A stretch of DNA of 64,000 nucleotides from the IMG/VR virus record IMGVR_UViG_3300021373_003070; one strand, 5' to 3'. A program made the position numbers and the translations under genes. The notes beneath the pieces were generated by a model. That model saw only the letters and a list, made by a program, of their open reading frames with translations. It was not told the origin of the DNA and did not search any database. Source of the stretch: a virus. Below, in pieces: positions 49,999 through 64,000 of this stretch. How positions within the stretch are numbered: position 1 is the first letter of the stretch; each line of letters starts with the position of its first letter.

Positions 49999-50039
49999 GT
50001 TAACAGTAAATCTAAAAATCCCAATAGGAGTTAAGCCAC

Positions 50040-58404: not shown

Positions 58405-58818
58405 ATGAGTAACGATTGGGCATCAGACATTCGATCTATGCATGACAAATATGGTGTACACGAATGGGTACAGGAAAATCCAGAAAAGCTACGTGAGTTC
58501 CTACAGTTCCGAATGAAGTTTATACAAGAGGAATTTAGCGAGACGCTCGAAGCAATCATCAATAATGATCCTGAAGAAATGGTCGACGGTCTTATTGATC
58601 TATGTGTTGTAGCTATCGGCACAATGGATGCATTTGGTATCGATGCTCATAAAGCGTGGAACGAGGTCTTCGCTGCCAACATGGCGAAAGAACGTGGTGT
58701 AAAAGAAACACGTCCTAATCCTCTCGGTCTACCAGATCTGATCAAGCCAGAAGGATGGCAAACACCATCACATGCCGGCAATCACGGCCTACTGGCTGAG
58801 ATGTCACGATCGGAATAA
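58405..58818 (+). CDS. MazG/PRA-PH-like nucleotide pyrophosphohydrolase
   Basis: EEFSE..EEMVDGLID..V..ANMAK..KPEGW. Confidence 0.8.
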   Translation: MSNDWASDIRSMHDKYGVHEWVQENPEKLREFLQFRMKFIQEEFSETLEAIINNDPEEMVDGLIDLCVVAIGTMDAFGIDAHKAWNEVFAANMAKERGVKETRPNPLGLPDLIKPEGWQTPSHAGNHGLLAEMSRSE

Positions 58819-58853
58819 CCGATTAATTTTGTGTTTTTTTGCTGAAAATAAGT

Positions 58854-58883
58854 GTGTACTTTTTCTTGATTATGCTGTAGAAT
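58854..58883 (+). promoter_or_regulatory. Early-like promoter GTGTAC-N18-TAGAAT
   Basis: Intergenic, with an AT-rich upstream element and the same geometry as 51435 and 51949. Confidence 0.65.
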
Positions 58884-58914
58884 AGACTAGTCAAATGGAA
58901 AAAGGTACACACTT

Positions 58915-59541
58915 ATGGCCTATTATTACGGCTCACTCAGAGACTCTCTGATCACAGAATGCCAGAACCAAGGCATGTCTCCATCTCATATCGAAAAGTA
59001 TGCCAAGTACTACATGGCAAAGCAGAGAGCTGCTCGAGGTGGCGGCCGTTCAAAGACTGGATATCAGGACTCCGATAAGACAAAAGTCTATCGTTCAGAG
59101 TGGGCATTTCAGTCAAAGGTTGACATCCGTCAATTCAAAGATATCGACGAAGCAACACAAAGATTCAAGCAAATCAAGAAGTCAAAGCTGTGGAGTCAGA
59201 TTGGTAAGCAATGCTATCTGATGGACAATCGCCGCATGGGTCGTGCTACTGCAGGTCGTGCACACGTTGGTGGTAAGATCGAGCTAGGTACAACAGGCAT
59301 GGATGAGTATACACTTATCCACGAAATGGCACATCAGACACATAACTCAATGCACCACGGTGTACAATTTCGTATCCACTTGTTAAAGTTAGTATCTAGA
59401 TTTATGGGACGAGAAGCACATGACATTCTCAAAGCAGAATTCAAAGAACGTAAGCTTAAGCTATCAATGCCTAAGCCACGTTCACCGGCTAGCTGGTTCA
59501 AATCATATCAACACATGCAAAAAGTAAGAGGTGAAGCATGA
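58915..59541 (+). CDS. Zincin/SprT-like HExxH protein
   Basis: LIHEMAH...HHG..F. Confidence 0.65.
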   Translation: MAYYYGSLRDSLITECQNQGMSPSHIEKYAKYYMAKQRAARGGGRSKTGYQDSDKTKVYRSEWAFQSKVDIRQFKDIDEATQRFKQIKKSKLWSQIGKQCYLMDNRRMGRATAGRAHVGGKIELGTTGMDEYTLIHEMAHQTHNSMHHGVQFRIHLLKLVSRFMGREAHDILKAEFKERKLKLSMPKPRSPASWFKSYQHMQKVRGEA

Positions 59542-59879
59542 AAGAATCACTTAAAGTTTTACAAGAATGTGCTGAGGTACAAATCAAAAAGTCTAATGAC
59601 TATCAAAATGATTACTCTCGCATTCGTCAAGCAGACTACTATCCTCGTGGTGTAGCTACTATCACAGATCTCATCTATGCTAAAGTTCTTCGTATGCAAT
59701 CAGTCATCGAAGCTAGCGAACGTGATCCAGAATATACACCAAACTTCGAATCAATCGAAGATTCTGCTAAAGATCTAATCAACTATGCATCATTCGTTGT
59801 TGCATACATGCGTGGCCAAATGGATGGCCAAGAAACAAACCGTGACTTCCTTAATCGGGTGATTGATGATTCAGAATAA
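59538..59879 (+). CDS. Nucleotide-modification-associated protein (Nmad1/DUF1599-like)
   Basis: KKSNDY..K..R..SIEDS..DLINYA; adjacent to the hydroxymethylase. Confidence 0.7.
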   Translation: MKESLKVLQECAEVQIKKSNDYQNDYSRIRQADYYPRGVATITDLIYAKVLRMQSVIEASERDPEYTPNFESIEDSAKDLINYASFVVAYMRGQMDGQETNRDFLNRVIDDSE

Positions 59880-60543
59880 AGTACATGATATCCGTTCTTA
59901 TTTCAAAGAAGCTTTACACAAAGAACAATTCACAATTGACAAGACTGGTCAAAAGACTATCGAATTAATTGGTGCATCGTTTATTGCAGACGAGCCATCT
60001 ATCTTTGGTAGACCGGTTCAAAAGTATATCGATGCCGAGATCAATTGGTATATTTCTCAATCTACTAACATTCACGATATCTATGATGAAGGTAGAGCAC
60101 CACCTGAAGCTTGGAAGTATTCGGCAAATGAACACGGTGAGATCAACTCAAACTATGGCCATCTTATTTACAGTGAAAAGTATGGTAATCAATACCATCG
60201 TGTAATGCAAGAACTTCTCGCTCATCCGGATGGCCGACGTGCAACAATGATTTATAATCGTCCATCTATATGGAATGAATACAACGAGAATGGTAAGTCA
60301 GACTTTATTTGTACCAATGCTGTAACTTACTATGTACGTAATGGTAAACTCCACTGTGTGGTTCAGATGCGCTCTAACGATGTGGTTTTCGGTTACAAGA
60401 ATGACTATGCTTGGCAGAAATATATACTAGATATGTTGGCTTATGATATTTCTAGTCATCACACACAAATATTTTCTGGTGATATTATGTGGCAGGTTCA
60501 AAACCTTCACGTATACGAACGACACTTTAAATTGGTGGAATAA
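59863..60543 (+). CDS. gp42: dCMP hydroxymethylase-like enzyme (thymidylate synthase fold)
   Basis: DFICTN..MRSNDVVFGYKNDYAWQKY..NLHVYERHF closely matches T4 gp42 as recalled, including the cytosine-specifying Asp. Confidence 0.85.
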   Translation: MMIQNKVHDIRSYFKEALHKEQFTIDKTGQKTIELIGASFIADEPSIFGRPVQKYIDAEINWYISQSTNIHDIYDEGRAPPEAWKYSANEHGEINSNYGHLIYSEKYGNQYHRVMQELLAHPDGRRATMIYNRPSIWNEYNENGKSDFICTNAVTYYVRNGKLHCVVQMRSNDVVFGYKNDYAWQKYILDMLAYDISSHHTQIFSGDIMWQVQNLHVYERHFKLVE

Positions 60544-61044
60544 ATGTGGATAATGTCCTCTCTTAGAATGATGTTTGTAGGTGCGCTGGCTTCGGCTGGT
60601 GTGCTTGCATATTTTTATTATGTTAATACTCAAGCTGAGTTAGAGTTACTACGCACTGAGATTGAACTATACGAAGTAAAGTTTGCCACACAAACTGAAA
60701 CTATTGATGAGCTAAGAGATGAAATACAAGCTCAAACTGAAAGGCTAAATACTTTAGCCATGGCAAATCAAGAAGCTGAAGTCGAGTTGAACAGATATCT
60801 TGATATTTTTAGACGACACAATTTGCAAAGGTTAGCGGCAGCTAAACCGGACTGGGTGTCGAATATTGTTAATAATGGAACGAAAGATGTATTTGACAGC
60901 ATTGAAGAAGTTAGTCGTGTTATCGACTCTATTGATGGTGACGGGGTGCAGTTGGCTCCATCCGAAGACGGAGATACAGATACAGACGAAACAGGTGAGA
61001 GTGCCAATAGCACAGCCGACACTTCCACGGGAACTGGATCTTAA
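60544..61044 (+). CDS. Inner-membrane spanin (Rz-like)
   Basis: N-terminal transmembrane helix plus coiled coil; overlapped by a lipoprotein gene. Confidence 0.7.
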   Translation: MWIMSSLRMMFVGALASAGVLAYFYYVNTQAELELLRTEIELYEVKFATQTETIDELRDEIQAQTERLNTLAMANQEAEVELNRYLDIFRRHNLQRLAAAKPDWVSNIVNNGTKDVFDSIEEVSRVIDSIDGDGVQLAPSEDGDTDTDETGESANSTADTSTGTGS

Positions 61045-61267
61045 AGAACCAAAGTTCTACGTAGTATCGGATAAAAATCTCGACGATTTTCTCGTAGAAA
61101 TTGAGAAGCGTGCTGGTGGAATTGTATTCGTCGCCATCACTGTTGATGACTACGAACTGATGTCATATAACATGCAAGAGATTAAGCGCTATGTACAACA
61201 GATGAAATCTGTAGTAGTATATTACTATGATATCGTCGAAGACAACAATGCGAAGGCTGAAAAGTGA
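60887..61267 (+). CDS. Outer-membrane spanin lipoprotein (Rz1-like); start likely 60887
   Basis: Signal KKLVVLSTLLMVTG-C lipobox, Pro-rich segment, +1-frame overlap with the Rz-like gene. Confidence 0.7.
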   Translation: MYLTALKKLVVLSTLLMVTGCSWLHPKTEIQIQTKQVRVPIAQPTLPRELDLKEPKFYVVSDKNLDDFLVEIEKRAGGIVFVAITVDDYELMSYNMQEIKRYVQQMKSVVVYYYDIVEDNNAKAEK

Positions 61268-61899
61268 GAGTTGCGTATTACGTCAATGGTAGTATACGTA
61301 AGGTAAATCAAAACAATTTGCCATACGATCCTATTGATGTGCATACAGATTTTGCCAATAAGATTGGTGCAGATCTCGGAATGTCAACATGGGAAGTAAG
61401 TAGTGATCCAAAATCAATATCGCTTCAAGAGCTCATGGAATTGCCATTTGAGAGAAGTAAACAGCCGCCGGGTTATTATCCGGATTTGTTCTGGCAACAT
61501 GTAAATTATTGTGAATGGGCGGCATGCAATTATGAAGTATATGACGTATTAGTCAGAGGTCGTTGGGATAATATTTACAATGAAGATAACATCGACCTGA
61601 TCAGTGAAAGCATTACGGCGTGTTATACTGATAGAATGGCGTTTGGATTTTGCAACAGTCGATATCGAGCATTAGATGAATCACTCAAAAATATCAATGA
61701 TCATGTGATTATTCATCCAGCTAAATCGTTTGATCCGGATTTTACCTCAAATTTCTTTCGTACATTCACCGGCGTATGGGAAGAAATGGGACCAGTAAGA
61801 CAAAGTCAGCATGCTGCATGTAAAGCTGAACATATATGGTGGTGGCTACTATGTGGTCGAACAAATTTACCTTACAAGAATATTAGATTATCTGAATGA
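61264..61899 (+). CDS. Hypothetical glycosyltransferase-like protein
   Basis: RVAYYVNG..R and YDVLVRGRWD..ND pattern seen in phage GT-like proteins. Confidence 0.4.
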   Translation: MRVAYYVNGSIRKVNQNNLPYDPIDVHTDFANKIGADLGMSTWEVSSDPKSISLQELMELPFERSKQPPGYYPDLFWQHVNYCEWAACNYEVYDVLVRGRWDNIYNEDNIDLISESITACYTDRMAFGFCNSRYRALDESLKNINDHVIIHPAKSFDPDFTSNFFRTFTGVWEEMGPVRQSQHAACKAEHIWWWLLCGRTNLPYKNIRLSE

Positions 61900-63065
61900 T
61901 TGAAACTACAAAATATTATGATGAATTCATAAGGTACTTCAACTTAGCCTATAAACAGCAAGAGCTATGTAATGTATCTGATAAAGAACCTTATGGCATG
62001 GTCGCACATAAGGATTCGAATCTCGGTGATGATCTCATGGAGAATGTTGAATTATATGATGTAGTCGAACGCAAATATGCAGGCTTTTCTCAGATCATAA
62101 ATGATTGTTTTTATGGATGGACAGAAGATCATCCATATTGGAAAAAGATGCAGGCGGGCTTGTGTACCCGTCAACGAGAGACCGTCGCCAAAGACTGGAC
62201 CGGTAAACAAGACGTATTCTCTCTTCCTGAATGGCTCTATGTTTTTATCCTTCATAGAGTCACCGGTTCAGCAATTAACTATGCCCAGAAACCATCTGGG
62301 TATTTTAACACCATCCTCTTCAATCTCCATCAGTGTGATACAATAGAAGAGATGGTGCAGCTGGCGAAGCACTACCCGGTACCCTTCTATACCTCAGTCG
62401 GTTACCAGTTCCCAGCGTTTCCAAAACCAGTCGGCGACTATAAGAAAGGCGGTGATTATTACCTCGGTGAATTTGCCCCTCGATTAGCTCGCGATCTCGC
62501 GGACCATTTGACGATGGGTCCTCGCAAGGACCTTCGCGAGATTGGTGAGTTTATGCTGAAGTGGAATGAAGACAATGGTCTTCGACGCTATCAGTTTCAA
62601 TACGCAGCTGTAGTCGCTGACGTCGCCGACTGGTTTCCTCAATACGTTAACCGTGAAAGCATGTTCTATTACGGTACAAATGCAGTAGAATGTATCTCTT
62701 ACTTGGCTAAACCTGTCAAGAAGATGAAAAAAGAGTTGTTCCTTGATGCCGTCATGACGAAAATATATGATGATACAGGAAGTGTACCATATAATGCTGA
62801 AGATGTATGTTGCGACTTCATTCGTTATGTTGAAAATTATGTTCGCCCTGGTCCGGAATATAATCATTTAGATTATGATAATCTGTGGTCGTCATGCGGC
62901 ATCAAGGATCACCCTTATGGAAGACAGAAATATATGTTGGATATGGGGTTGATAGAAACTTTTAATGGCATGAAAAATCATCCATCTGATGATGCAATTC
63001 TAAAAAATAATGAAATGACTGTTGAAGAGTACCAACGTAATGTCGCTAACTTACTTTCTAGGTGA
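61896..63065 (+). CDS. Putative amino acid:DNA transferase-like (aGPT-Pplase-like) base hypermodification enzyme
   Basis: C-terminal F..AAVVAD..YGTNA..EDVCCDFIRY resembles the ExxLCExxKY motif; sits in the gp42 cluster. Confidence 0.5.
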   Translation: MIETTKYYDEFIRYFNLAYKQQELCNVSDKEPYGMVAHKDSNLGDDLMENVELYDVVERKYAGFSQIINDCFYGWTEDHPYWKKMQAGLCTRQRETVAKDWTGKQDVFSLPEWLYVFILHRVTGSAINYAQKPSGYFNTILFNLHQCDTIEEMVQLAKHYPVPFYTSVGYQFPAFPKPVGDYKKGGDYYLGEFAPRLARDLADHLTMGPRKDLREIGEFMLKWNEDNGLRRYQFQYAAVVADVADWFPQYVNRESMFYYGTNAVECISYLAKPVKKMKKELFLDAVMTKIYDDTGSVPYNAEDVCCDFIRYVENYVRPGPEYNHLDYDNLWSSCGIKDHPYGRQKYMLDMGLIETFNGMKNHPSDDAILKNNEMTVEEYQRNVANLLSR

Positions 63066-64000
63066 ACACGAAAATGATATCCAATATCAGAACATTGCTG
63101 AGGTGGATTACAAAAACGGCAAACCTACGTCGTCGTGGTTAAAAGGTTGGTGTCAAGAAGCTCGAACTGAAAAGTTTTTCGAGTTCTGTCGTGGCTACGA
63201 TGCACGTCAAGACTTTTTACTAAAGAACAACTATCAACAATTCTCACATCGATTGCACTGGCACGAATGTCCTTTTGTTGACGAGATGGCACAAGAGAAA
63301 GACAGAGTCAAGGTACTCGAAGCATGCGTTCTCTTCTCATTTAGCAACGAGCATTGGCAAACATTCAGAGCATGGCGTGATCATGGTCAAGACGGTATGA
63401 GAGTAAGATTTACAAGCTATCGTCATGCTCGTAGCGATCTGTTTCAGATCTACTATCCAAAAGATACGAAGGTCAAAGACTGGCTCATCGAAGCGCCAGC
63501 TCGTATTGCACTTGAGCTCGATTCATTATTCGATGGCATGCGTAGACCGTTCACGATGATGGAATTTGCCAAAAAAATGAACATCATCATGGTCCGCGAT
63601 TTTGGTTTTCGTAATGCCATGTACCCGTCAAAGAATGCAGCGCGACATGTAGCGATGAGCCATCCTGAGTGGGTTGATCCTGACTCGTTCTTACATGGTG
63701 GTACAGGATACTTCGATGGTTTGTCGCAGATCTTTGACTGTCCACATCTTATGTCAAGATCAAAGTATGAGATTGATGAGGATGGTGAATACGTACCGAT
63801 GAATAAATGGGCAGAGATGCAGATCCAACACATGGACTATCTCAAAAATCATCCTAGCAATCCTATTCATACACATCAGTATCTCAACTTAGAAGACAAG
63901 CTATGTATGCATTACAAGTTTATGTCAATGAAGCTAGGTTCTAAAAAGCAAACAAAGATGATACCATATAACTGGGTGTATCCAGAGAATTGGTCTCTTA
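63040..64000 (+). CDS. Second aGPT-Pplase-like protein (partial, runs off the window)
   Basis: Open frame from ATG 63040 (MSLTYFLGEHEND...) to the window end; ..GGTGYFDGL..NLEDKLCMHYK. Confidence 0.5.
   Translation, partial: MSLTYFLGEHENDIQYQNIAEVDYKNGKPTSSWLKGWCQEARTEKFFEFCRGYDARQDFLLKNNYQQFSHRLHWHECPFVDEMAQEKDRVKVLEACVLFSFSNEHWQTFRAWRDHGQDGMRVRFTSYRHARSDLFQIYYPKDTKVKDWLIEAPARIALELDSLFDGMRRPFTMMEFAKKMNIIMVRDFGFRNAMYPSKNAARHVAMSHPEWVDPDSFLHGGTGYFDGLSQIFDCPHLMSRSKYEIDEDGEYVPMNKWAEMQIQHMDYLKNHPSNPIHTHQYLNLEDKLCMHYKFMSMKLGSKKQTKMIPYNWVYPENWSL

What the first reader, a model, noticed from the sequence alone, without database searches (positions are those of the whole stretch)
58405..64000. Cytosine-type hydroxymethylase coupled to two amino-acid:DNA-transferase-like genes: possible new cytosine hypermodification
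Seen: the thymidylate-synthase-fold enzyme has MRSNDVVFGYKND, with Asp as in T4 gp42 (dCMP-specific) instead of the Asn of dUMP-using enzymes. Nearby are MazG-like, Nmad1-like and GT-like genes, plus two tandem proteins ending EDVCCDFIRY and EDKLCMHYK. Known: characterised aGPT-Pplase/amino acid:DNA transferases modify 5-hydroxymethyluracil, whereas T4 glucosylates hmC. Inference: a hybrid pathway that attaches an amine or amino acid to hmC. The transferase call rests on short motifs, and the rest of the cluster lies beyond the window.
Basis: partly seen in the sequence, partly recalled or inferred. Interest (0 to 1): 0.7.

Follow-up and report, generated by a model that had tools for sequence, protein, structure and literature searches.

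The report
Amino-acid-type DNA modification built on hydroxymethylcytosine
An uncultured marine T4-like phage pairs a T4-type enzyme that makes hydroxymethylcytosine with two distant relatives of the enzymes that attach amino acids to phage thymine, and a vitamin-B6 enzyme follows in close relatives, so its DNA probably carries an undescribed amino-acid-derived cytosine that is common in ocean viruses.

Summary
No chemistry was tested.

- **Hydroxymethylase.** ORF 59863-60543 is 52% identical to T4 gp42. It keeps the catalytic Cys and both Asp signatures, and is only 24% identical to the RB69-type 5-hydroxy-dCMP synthase.
- **Proteins A and B.** A (61896-63065) and B (63040 to the window end) match no Pfam, PHROG or NCBIfam model. 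They are paralogues (hhalign 94%). Both fold with high confidence, and out of 48,161 PDB chains both hit the PaMx11 gp46 amino acid:DNA transferase crystal structure first. HhH DNA glycosylases make up most of the rest of the list. Both keep an invariant E-D-x-x-C motif, with the spacing of the transferase's catalytic Glu/Cys.
- **Relatives.** In 50 related contigs the order MazG, Nmad1, gp42 ... A, B is followed by a PLP enzyme homologous to the M6 gp52 decarboxylase and by a GDSH-motif protein. That protein is fused to the A domain in other phages.
- **What is missing.** No 5-hmdU-DNA-kinase-type gene was found, so how the hydroxymethyl group is activated is open.
- **Novelty.** A and B have no homologue in deposited phage genomes, and no paper in the held library describes this pathway on cytosine.

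Earlier scan notes cover this same stretch in overlapping windows of the same genome, not other DNA.

The parts
58405..58818 (+). MazG-like nucleotide pyrophosphohydrolase. Inferred role: clearing dCTP, as T4 gp56 does.
   Evidence: PF01503 4.5e-11 and phrog_671 9.8e-24. Conserved upstream of gp42 in many related loci. The role is inferred.
58915..59541 (+). HExxH metallohydrolase, weakly SprT-like. Accessory: not found in the other loci.
   Evidence: PF10263 SprT-like E 0.0017, below cut-off. TIGR04338 HEXXH E 1.2e-4, below cut-off. No tblastn match in the 50 loci.
59538..59879 (+). Nmad1 (DUF1599, nucleotide modification associated domain 1). Biochemical role unknown.
   Evidence: PF07659 5.5e-5 and phrog_1485 2.2e-11. 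Next to gp42 in nearly all loci with enough flank.
59863..60543 (+). T4 gp42-type dCMP hydroxymethylase (5hmdCMP synthase).
   Evidence: 52% identity to T4-like gp42 by tblastn. PDB 1b49 E 8.9e-69, with Cys148, Asp179 and Asp145 equivalents kept. Only 24% identity to RB69 gp48 5-hydroxy-dCMP synthase.
60544..61044 (+). Rz-like i-spanin. Interposed lysis gene, not part of the pathway.
   Evidence: phrog_739 2e-11. Present only in the window and the L001 clade.
60866..61267 (+). Rz1-like o-spanin, overlapping the end of Rz. Not part of the pathway.
   Evidence: phrog_812 2.8e-13.
61264..61899 (+). 211-aa ORF of unknown function. Its stop overlaps the start of A. Absent from all 50 related loci.
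   Evidence: No Pfam, PHROG or NCBIfam hit. No INPHARED match. Atlas shows viral hypothetical clusters with a weak WavE/DUF7796 lead. Found only in the window.
61896..63065 (+). Protein A, 389 aa: divergent member of the aGPT-Pplase/amino acid:DNA transferase superfamily with invariant Glu302 and Cys306 and near-invariant Asp303 (E-D-x-x-C).
   Evidence: Model pLDDT 96.5. Best PDB match 8z2m_A, Z 9.4. BFVD hits. Invariant residues. 929 metagenomic homologues.
63040..64000 (+). Protein B, about 330 aa, with the last ~10 residues beyond the window. Paralogue of A with invariant Glu285, Asp286 and Cys289.
   Evidence: 91% identical to L001:11404-12396. hhalign of A family against B family: probability 93.9%, E 1.6e-7. 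Model pLDDT 90.6. Best PDB match 8z2m_A, Z 8.8.

Best explanation
The stretch is the front half of a DNA hypermodification module of a marine T4-like phage. Inferred steps before replication: the gp42-type enzyme turns dCMP into 5-hydroxymethyl-dCMP, the MazG enzyme probably removes dCTP, and the polymerase then builds DNA with hydroxymethylcytosine. Inferred steps after replication: proteins A and B, remote relatives of the amino acid:DNA transferases known from thymidine hypermodification, flip the base out. Their conserved cysteine attacks C6, the C5 substituent leaves to give an exocyclic methylene, and an amino acid or amine adds to it. The PLP enzyme encoded just after B in relatives then trims the adduct, for instance by decarboxylation as M6 gp52 does. 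No 5-hmdU-DNA-kinase-type gene was found. Activation of the hydroxyl therefore either falls to the GDSH-motif protein that is fused to the A domain in other phages (for example by O-acylation), or is not needed for cytosine. Shown here: the identities, folds, motifs, paralogy, synteny and fusions. Inferred: the substrate (hmC in DNA), the donor, the order of steps and the product.
For: 1. The gp42-type enzyme: 52% identity to T4 gp42, E 8.9e-69 to PDB 1b49, with the Cys148, Asp179 and Asp145 equivalents kept. It is 24% identical to the RB69 5-hydroxy-dCMP synthase. All 23 neighbouring homologues keep both Asp residues.
2. A and B each hit the AADT crystal structure 8z2m first among 48,161 chains (Z 9.4 over 207 residues; Z 8.8 over 223 residues), with HhH glycosylases making up most of the rest of the top rows. 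BFVD matches to Pplase1, HMUDK_hel and AADT models have probability 0.9-1.0.
3. E302/C306 in A and E285/C289 in B are invariant. They have the E-x-x-x-C spacing of Glu243/Cys247 of PaMx11 gp46 and M6 gp51, residues whose mutation kills activity (PMC8989533, PMC11472151). The only hhalign alignment found between the A family and AADT puts these residues on each other, although it is not significant.
4. A and B are paralogues, like the paralogous pairs described in T-hypermodification clusters.
5. The synteny MazG, Nmad1, gp42 ... A, B, p293, p367 holds over loci whose A is 63-92% identical.
6. p293 is a PALP-fold enzyme homologous to M6 gp52: hhalign probability 96.3%, E 2e-9, 221 columns. Its cultured-phage homologues pass the Pfam PALP cut-off.
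7. Seven proteins of 640-790 aa fuse a p367-like N-terminal part to an A-like C-terminal part. All seven keep GDSH and five of them keep the ED..C pattern. This parallels the kinase-AADT fusions reported for the thymidine pathway.
8. The region has no late-promoter motif and sits among replication genes.
Against: No sequence method links A or B to AADT significantly. There is no PF18724 hit for 53 family members, nor in the relative's whole contig. hhalign against an AADT profile gives probability 0.8% for A and 0.2% for B. Z scores of 9 are in the range that helical proteins can reach by common arrangement (tool note). DUF2419, which acts on a nucleotide and not on DNA, scores nearly as well (Z 8.7). 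The E-x-x-x-C motif also occurs in M6 gp55, the clade-1 'kinase helical domain', so it does not by itself mark a transferase. The kinase that makes the leaving group in every characterised pathway was not found. p293, p367 and the rest were read in relatives, not in this genome. No nucleoside data exist.
Confidence: 0.6

Rival explanations
1. A and B are DNA-binding or base-flipping helper proteins without transferase chemistry, like the clade-1 aGPT-Pplase helical domain that accompanies the kinase. The actual decoration of hmC would be made by the downstream GDSH protein, the C5-methyltransferase-like protein or the weakly GT-like protein.
For: BFVD hits to HMUDK helical-domain and Pplase1 models score about as well as hits to AADT. 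One A-family member touches PF18723 at E 0.01. M6 gp55 of that clade also carries E-x-x-x-C. The A domain is fused to the GDSH protein, as the helical domain is fused to the kinase in SP10.
Against: The best solved-structure match for both proteins is the catalytic transferase. Glu and Cys are invariant in two paralogous families over wide divergence. A homologue of the PLP enzyme that processes the transferase's product follows directly.
Confidence: 0.17
2. A and B work on free nucleotides (hm-dCMP or hm-dCTP) before replication. They would be nucleotide-level transferases or hydrolases, as the HhH-fold queuosine-monophosphate hydrolase DUF2419 is, so the modified base is built before incorporation.
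For: DUF2419 structures 7ugk and 7u07 score Z 8.7 and 8.6 for A. The genes sit with nucleotide-metabolism genes (MazG, gp42). The known hmC carbamoyltransferase also accepts hm-dCTP (PMC8670742).
Against: PUGT ranks above DUF2419 for both proteins, clearly so for B (8.8 against 6.8). The partner protein p367 carries a weak T4 beta-glucosyltransferase-like part.
Confidence: 0.1
3. A and B are repair or anti-defence DNA glycosylases, ordinary HhH enzymes that excise a base and are unconnected with hypermodification.
For: HhH glycosylases (AGOG, AlkA, EndoIII, OGG) fill the fold lists at Z 5-8. In one clade a true HhH-GPD gene lies directly upstream of A and B.
Against: No Pfam HhH-GPD match for A or B even at E 10. 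The invariant residues are the Glu/Cys pair of the transferase superfamily, not a glycosylase Asp/Lys. There is tight synteny and fusion with modification-type genes.
Confidence: 0.05
4. The module modifies thymine or uracil-derived bases, as in the known pathways, and the cytosine call is wrong.
For: Every characterised member of the superfamily acts on 5-hydroxymethyluracil derivatives (PMC8989533).
Against: The only TS-fold gene next to the module is the T4 dCMP type, with Asp at the specificity position in all 23 loci examined. No 5-hmdU DNA kinase family was found. The residue after the catalytic Glu, which with a metal contacts O4 of thymine in PUGT (Thr244), is Asp in both A and B.
Confidence: 0.04

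Closest known systems
[quoted passage not shown]
   Same: Helical HhH-glycosylase-like fold, and the best PDB match for both A and B. A Glu and a Cys four residues apart in a C-terminal helix, both invariant. They occur as a paralogous pair, next to a TS-fold hydroxymethylase, and in relatives next to a fold-type-II PLP enzyme homologous to M6 gp52.
   Different: No significant sequence match to PF18724 and longer chains (389 and about 330 aa against about 290). The partner hydroxymethylase is the dCMP type. No 5-HMUDK kinase was found. Asp replaces the Thr that follows the catalytic Glu. A GDSH-motif protein is the fusion partner, not a kinase.
T4 hydroxymethylcytosine pathway (gp42 dCMP hydroxymethylase, gp56 dCTPase, alpha/beta-glucosyltransferases)
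   Same: gp42 homologue at 52% identity with the same catalytic and specificity residues. A pyrophosphohydrolase lies next to it. The genes sit among T4-type replication and recombination genes: UvsY, UvsW, gp46/47 and, in relatives, gp45.
   Different: No full T4 glucosyltransferase. PF09198 rings only weakly (E 0.009, below cut-off), inside the GDSH protein of the relative. The tailoring genes are AADT-like and PLP-type rather than sugar transferases.
5-hydroxymethylcytosine carbamoyltransferase pathway (5cmdC; MetaGPA study, PMC8670742)
   Same: A metagenome-derived phage pathway that couples a TS-fold dCMP hydroxymethylase and a MazG-type PRA-PH domain to a non-sugar decoration of hmC.
   Different: The tailoring enzyme there is a TobZ-type carbamoyltransferase that adds to the hydroxyl oxygen. 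Here the candidate enzymes are of the type that replaces the hydroxyl through a C6-thiol adduct.
RB69/DLP3 5-hydroxycytosine arabinosylation (PMC13326640)
   Same: A T4-like phage, a TS-fold enzyme with the same two Asp/Glu signature positions, and a tailoring cluster near gene 43/45.
   Different: The window's enzyme is only 24% identical to RB69 gp48 and lacks its altered motif. No sugar-nucleotide genes are in the window.

Membership tests
aGPT-Pplase / amino acid:DNA transferase superfamily | HhH DNA-glycosylase-like all-helical fold | tested here: met
   The A model (pLDDT 96.5) and the B model (pLDDT 90.6) have 8z2m_A as top match of 48,161 chains (Z 9.4, rmsd 3.9, 207 aa; Z 8.8, rmsd 4.4, 223 aa). 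HhH glycosylases make up most of the rest of the top rows. BFVD probability is 0.9-1.0 for Pplase1, HMUDK_hel and AADT models.
aGPT-Pplase / amino acid:DNA transferase superfamily | Conserved catalytic Cys with a Glu four residues before it (Glu243/Cys247 of PUGT and M6 gp51) | tested here: met
   E302/C306 are invariant in 53 A sequences and E285/C289 in 48 B sequences. The motif is kept in all loci. hhalign places them on E243/C247, but without significance. The end offsets of the VIA alignment ranges fit: 317-306 equals 258-247.
Pfam PF18724 (ADDT), the curated family of characterised AADTs | Sequence match to the family model above its cut-off | tested here: not met
   No hit for A or B at E up to 10. 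None among 53 A-family members at E up to 1. None in the whole 163.7-kb relative contig. Positive control: M6 gp51 at 1.4e-46. BFVD nevertheless carries the UniProt name 'Amino acid:DNA transferase domain-containing protein' for 65% and 60% identical homologues.
Thymidine-type hypermodification cluster (5-HMUDK + AADT + PLP enzyme) | P-loop 5-hmdU DNA kinase that makes the phosphate leaving group | tested here: not met
   PF18748 and PF18723 give no match at E up to 10 in the 91%-complete contig of the 92%-identical relative. The window's own genome is not held, so a kinase elsewhere in it cannot be excluded.
Thymidine-type hypermodification cluster (5-HMUDK + AADT + PLP enzyme) | Fold-type-II PLP enzyme next to the transferase | tested here: met
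This was shown in relatives. The p293 family against M6 gp52 gives hhalign probability 96.3%, E 2e-9, 221 columns, with the Lys of G-T-K-A-R on the gp52 Lys. Homologues in Microcystis and Erythrobacter phages pass the PALP cut-off.
T4 gp42 dCMP hydroxymethylase | TS fold with catalytic Cys148, Asp179 at the E. coli Asn177 position and an acidic residue at the Leu143 position | tested here: met
   PDB 1b49 at E 8.9e-69. S-D-F-I-C-T-N aligns with S-D-F-M-C-T-N, and K-N-D-Y-A-W-Q with R-N-D-Y-A-W-Q. The signature positions are as described in PMC13326640.
T4 gp42 dCMP hydroxymethylase | Hydroxymethylating type, not the flavin-dependent 5-hydroxylating (RB69 gp48) type | tested here: met
   52% identity to T4-type enzymes against 24% to RB69 gp48. 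The product itself is not testable here.
HhH-GPD DNA glycosylases | Match to PF00730 and the glycosylase catalytic Asp/Lys | tested here: not met
   No PF00730 hit for A or B at E up to 10, whereas the neighbouring gene in L038 hits it at 9.3e-10. Catalytic residues were not mapped.

The most novel reading that the evidence does not exclude
Ocean T4-like phages replace every cytosine by an amino-acid- or amine-bearing 5-methylcytosine derivative made without any DNA kinase. A GDSH (SGNH-type) enzyme carrying a T4 glucosyltransferase-like DNA-side half would acylate the hydroxymethyl group to create the leaving group. Two cytosine-adapted transferases (E-D-x-x-C) would then install the side chain, and a PLP enzyme would decarboxylate it. 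This would be a second, independent route to C5 amino-alkyl pyrimidines and the first for cytosine.
Probability: 0.3. Interest if true: 0.88.

Novelty: new variant of a known kind. Interest (0 to 1): 0.76.

Why it matters
All characterised amino acid:DNA transferase pathways decorate thymine. Known decorations of hydroxymethylcytosine are sugars and a carbamoyl group. A cytosine version would add a new class of natural DNA base and show that the Cys-C6 substitution chemistry has been adapted to cytosine. The missing kinase would also make the leaving-group question directly testable.

The genes are abundant. There are 929 clusters at 90% identity for A alone, on 150-170 kb contigs of uncultured marine myoviruses, and none in deposited phage genomes. 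If the reading is right, a large share of ocean T4-like viruses carry DNA that would resist many restriction enzymes. Such DNA could also bias enzymatic library preparation, deamination-based methods and nanopore base-calling. The enzymes would be candidates for site-selective labelling of hmC.

Tried and rejected
- **Window genome and neighbourhoods.** The downstream genes were therefore read in IMG/VR relatives, chiefly L001 (A 92% identical).
- **Sequence routes from A and B to known families that gave nothing:**
  - Pfam at E up to 10, PHROGs and NCBIfam.
  - phmmer and profile searches of PDB sequences.
  - PF18724 against the relative's contig.
  - hhalign against an AADT profile, probability 0.8% and 0.2%, and against M6 gp55.
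- **Foldseek against PDB.** It gave no hit at E up to 0.001 for A. Only the exhaustive VIA search found 8z2m.
- **Other dead ends.** Megablast of the region and tblastn of A, B and ORF 211 against INPHARED found nothing. PF18725, guessed as a third aGPT-Pplase clade, turned out to be an unrelated HEPN family. A profile of the GDSH protein found nothing in PDB sequences.
- **Considered and rejected.** That the TS-fold enzyme is an RB69-type 5-hydroxy-dCMP synthase. That the spanin genes belong to the pathway: they occur only in this clade.
- **A clade with no answer.** In the clade L024-L042, A and B lack gp42, p293 and p367 nearby. Those contigs are fragments (6-31% complete), so nothing follows from that.

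Full report
**What is in the stretch.** Between 58405 and 64000 all sizeable ORFs lie on the + strand:
- MazG-type pyrophosphohydrolase, 58405-58818 (PF01503 4.5e-11).
- HExxH protein, weakly SprT-like, 58915-59541.
- Nmad1/DUF1599, 59538-59879.
- Thymidylate-synthase-fold protein, 59863-60543.
- Rz/Rz1 spanin pair, 60544-61267 (phrog_739, phrog_812).
- Unknown 211-aa ORF, 61264-61899.
- Protein A, 61896-63065, 389 aa.
- Protein B, from 63040 to the window end.

Upstream lie UvsY, UvsW, a gp55-like sigma factor and the gp47/gp46 nuclease pair. The module therefore sits in the replication and recombination block of a T4-like phage. The T4 late-promoter octamer occurs 14 times in the window, always on the + strand and always before position 50,000, with none in 50-64 kb. 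That fits early or middle expression. I therefore used IMG/VR relatives found with protein A. The closest is L001, from a 163.7-kb contig rated 91% complete, with A 92% and B 91% identical.

**The hydroxymethylase.** The 226-aa TS-fold protein is 52% identical over its whole length to gp42 of T4-like phages. It matches the T4 dCMP hydroxymethylase structures at E 8.9e-69, against about 1e-7 for true thymidylate synthases. In that alignment three T4 residues are kept:
- the catalytic Cys148;
- Asp179, at the position of E. coli Asn177 that sets dCMP against dUMP;
- Asp145, at the position of Leu143 that lets water in.

A 2026 paper shows that RB69-type homologues with the same two signature positions make 5-hydroxy-dCMP instead (PMC13326640). 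I therefore compared the window's enzyme with RB69 gp48. Identity is only 24% and the motif region differs. The T4-type reading, 5-hydroxymethyl-dCMP, is the best supported. All 23 homologues that lie near an A gene in related loci keep both Asp residues.

**Proteins A and B.**
- *Sequence searches.* Neither matches any Pfam, PHROG or NCBIfam model, even at lax thresholds. Neither matches any PDB sequence or any deposited phage genome.
- *Abundance.* A has 929 cluster representatives at E up to 0.001, many on 150-170 kb contigs and all unnamed. It has 144 representatives at the 50% level.
- *Conserved residues.* In 53 A-family sequences of 23-90% identity the invariant residues include Glu302 and Cys306, with Asp303, Asp307 and Arg310 nearly invariant. 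In 48 B-family sequences Glu285, Asp286, Lys287 and Cys289 are invariant.
- *Paralogy.* The two families are homologous: hhalign probability 93.9%, E 1.6e-7, 132 columns, with the two E-D-x-x-C motifs aligned.
- *Fold.* AlphaFold2 gives confident, mainly helical models, with mean pLDDT 96.5 for A and 90.6 for B. An exhaustive structural comparison with 48,161 PDB chains puts the same entry first for both. It is 8z2m, the 5-phosphomethyl-dU glycinyltransferase gp46 of phage PaMx11, the solved amino acid:DNA transferase. Scores are Z 9.4, rmsd 3.9 Å over 207 residues for A, and Z 8.8, rmsd 4.4 Å over 223 residues for B. Below it come DUF2419 and a run of HhH DNA glycosylases.
- *Predicted viral structures.* Foldseek against BFVD returns aGPT-Pplase clade 1, 5-hmdU-kinase helical-domain and AADT models at probability 0.9-1.0. 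It also shows that UniProt already names 65% and 60% identical homologues 'Amino acid:DNA transferase domain-containing protein'.

**How far the likeness goes.**
- In PaMx11 gp46 and M6 gp51 the nucleophile is Cys247. Glu243, with Thr244 and a metal ion, contacts O4 of the flipped thymine. Mutating the Cys or the Glu abolishes activity (PMC8989533, PMC11472151).
- A and B have the same Glu-x-x-x-Cys spacing in the corresponding C-terminal helix.
- The only local alignment hhalign finds between the A family and an AADT profile puts Glu302 on Glu243 and Cys306 on Cys247. It is not significant (E 0.07, probability 0.8%).
- The motif is also present in M6 gp55, the clade-1 helical domain. It marks the superfamily rather than the transferase clade.
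- The residue after the Glu is Thr in the thymine enzymes and Asp in both A and B. A carboxylate there could accept hydrogen bonds from the 4-amino group of cytosine. That would parallel the Asn-to-Asp switch of the hydroxymethylase. This is my inference and is untested.
- I file A and B as a new, divergent clade of the superfamily, not as members of Pfam family PF18724. They fail that model, while the positive control M6 gp51 scores 1.4e-46.

**The neighbourhood.**
- *Gene order.* tblastn of the module's proteins against the 50 related loci shows a conserved order: MazG, Nmad1, gp42, then A, B, a 293-aa protein (p293) and a 367-aa protein (p367). Some loci have A, p293, p367 or only A, p367.
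- *Accessory genes.* The spanins, the HExxH protein and the 211-aa ORF are confined to this clade or to the window.
- *p293.* A profile of 14 sequences aligns with M6 gp52, the PLP-dependent decarboxylase of the thymidine pathway, at probability 96.3%, E 2e-9, over 221 columns. The alignment includes the PLP-lysine motif. Its homologues in Microcystis phage Mae-JY30 and Erythrobacter phages pass the PALP gathering score, and there they are fused or adjacent to an N6/N4 DNA methylase.
- *p367.* It has an invariant G-D-S-H motif and a weak language-model lead to GDSL lipases. It also shows a weak, sub-threshold ring of the T4 beta-glucosyltransferase model in its N-terminal part.
- *Fusions.* Seven proteins of 640-790 aa join a p367-like N-terminal part (BLASTP 1e-25 to 2e-51) to an A-like C-terminal part. 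All seven keep GDSH and five of them keep the ED..C pattern. This is a Rosetta-stone link. It mirrors the kinase-transferase fusions reported for the thymidine pathway.
That leaves room for just one p293-sized gene after B, so the order probably holds here too.

**What is missing.** The 5-hmdU DNA kinase families PF18748 and PF18723 give no match at E up to 10 in the relative's 163.7-kb contig. There are two ways out. The first is that the GDSH protein, fused to A in other phages, provides the leaving group, for instance by O-acylation. The second is that the enzyme-C6 adduct of hydroxymethylcytosine loses water without prior activation. From my own recollection, not checked here, C5 DNA methyltransferases can exchange the hydroxyl of hmC for thiols in vitro. 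I cannot decide between these.

**Comparison and novelty.** The logic matches the thymidine hypermodification clusters: a TS-fold hydroxymethylase, a paralogous pair of HhH-type proteins with Glu/Cys, and a PLP enzyme. It differs in three ways: the base (cytosine), the lack of the kinase, and the GDSH partner. Known decorations of hmC are glucose, arabinose-type sugars and a carbamoyl group. Five full-text searches bearing on this question found no paper on an AADT/PLP route on cytosine. The library does not cover all journals. I rate it a new variant of a known kind, with high interest because of its abundance in marine viromes and because the experiment is straightforward.

**Confidence.**

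| Claim | Confidence |
|---|---|
| The TS-fold enzyme is a T4-type dCMP hydroxymethylase | about 0.9 |
| A and B belong to the aGPT-Pplase/AADT superfamily | about 0.85 |
| Together with the PLP enzyme they convert hmC in DNA into an amino-acid- or amine-derived base | about 0.6 |

The main rivals are a helper rather than catalytic role for A and B, action on free nucleotides, and plain glycosylase activity.

Noticed in passing
L054:7001-7798 (Microcystis phage Mae-JY30) and L055:4816-7236 (Erythrobacter phage vB_EliS_R6L gp1): The PLP (PALP-fold) domain related to p293 is annotated 'DNA modification methylase' in cultured phages. In R6L it is fused behind an N6/N4 DNA methylase domain. In Mae-JY30 it follows a methylase annotated ParB/sulfiredoxin. 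These may be unrecognised DNA hypermodification enzymes in cultivable phages.
   Followed up: partly
L038:9166-12138: In a clade where A is about 64% identical, a true HhH-GPD family gene (PF00730 9.3e-10) lies directly upstream of A and B, giving three HhH-type genes in a row. A segE-like homing endonuclease and a GT6 glycosyltransferase are nearby, with no p293 or p367 within 10 kb.
   Followed up: partly
L001:8902-9318: The closest relative has a cytidylyltransferase-like gene (PF01467 2.9e-13) between the hydroxymethylase and the spanins. The window lacks it. It could make an activated donor.
   Followed up: no
window 58915-59541: An HExxH metallohydrolase, weakly SprT-like, sits inside the module and only in this phage. 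SprT-type proteases remove DNA-protein crosslinks, and the Cys-C6 chemistry proposed for A and B passes through such adducts. This is speculative.
   Followed up: no
window 60544-61267: An Rz/Rz1 spanin pair with the usual embedded arrangement lies among replication and nucleotide genes, far from any late-promoter motif.
   Followed up: no
window 2914-49998: TATAAATA occurs 14 times, all on the + strand and all before 50 kb (expected 6.1; none of 100 shuffles reached 14). This marks the late region of the window.
   Followed up: partly
L001:14357-16592 and L001:17712-19654: Downstream of p367 the relative has a C5-cytosine-methyltransferase-like gene (PF00145 4.6e-16), odd for a phage whose cytosines would already carry a C5 substituent, and a weakly GT-like gene. 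After gp45 come an isocitrate lyase (1.5e-94) and a PhyH dioxygenase.
   Followed up: no
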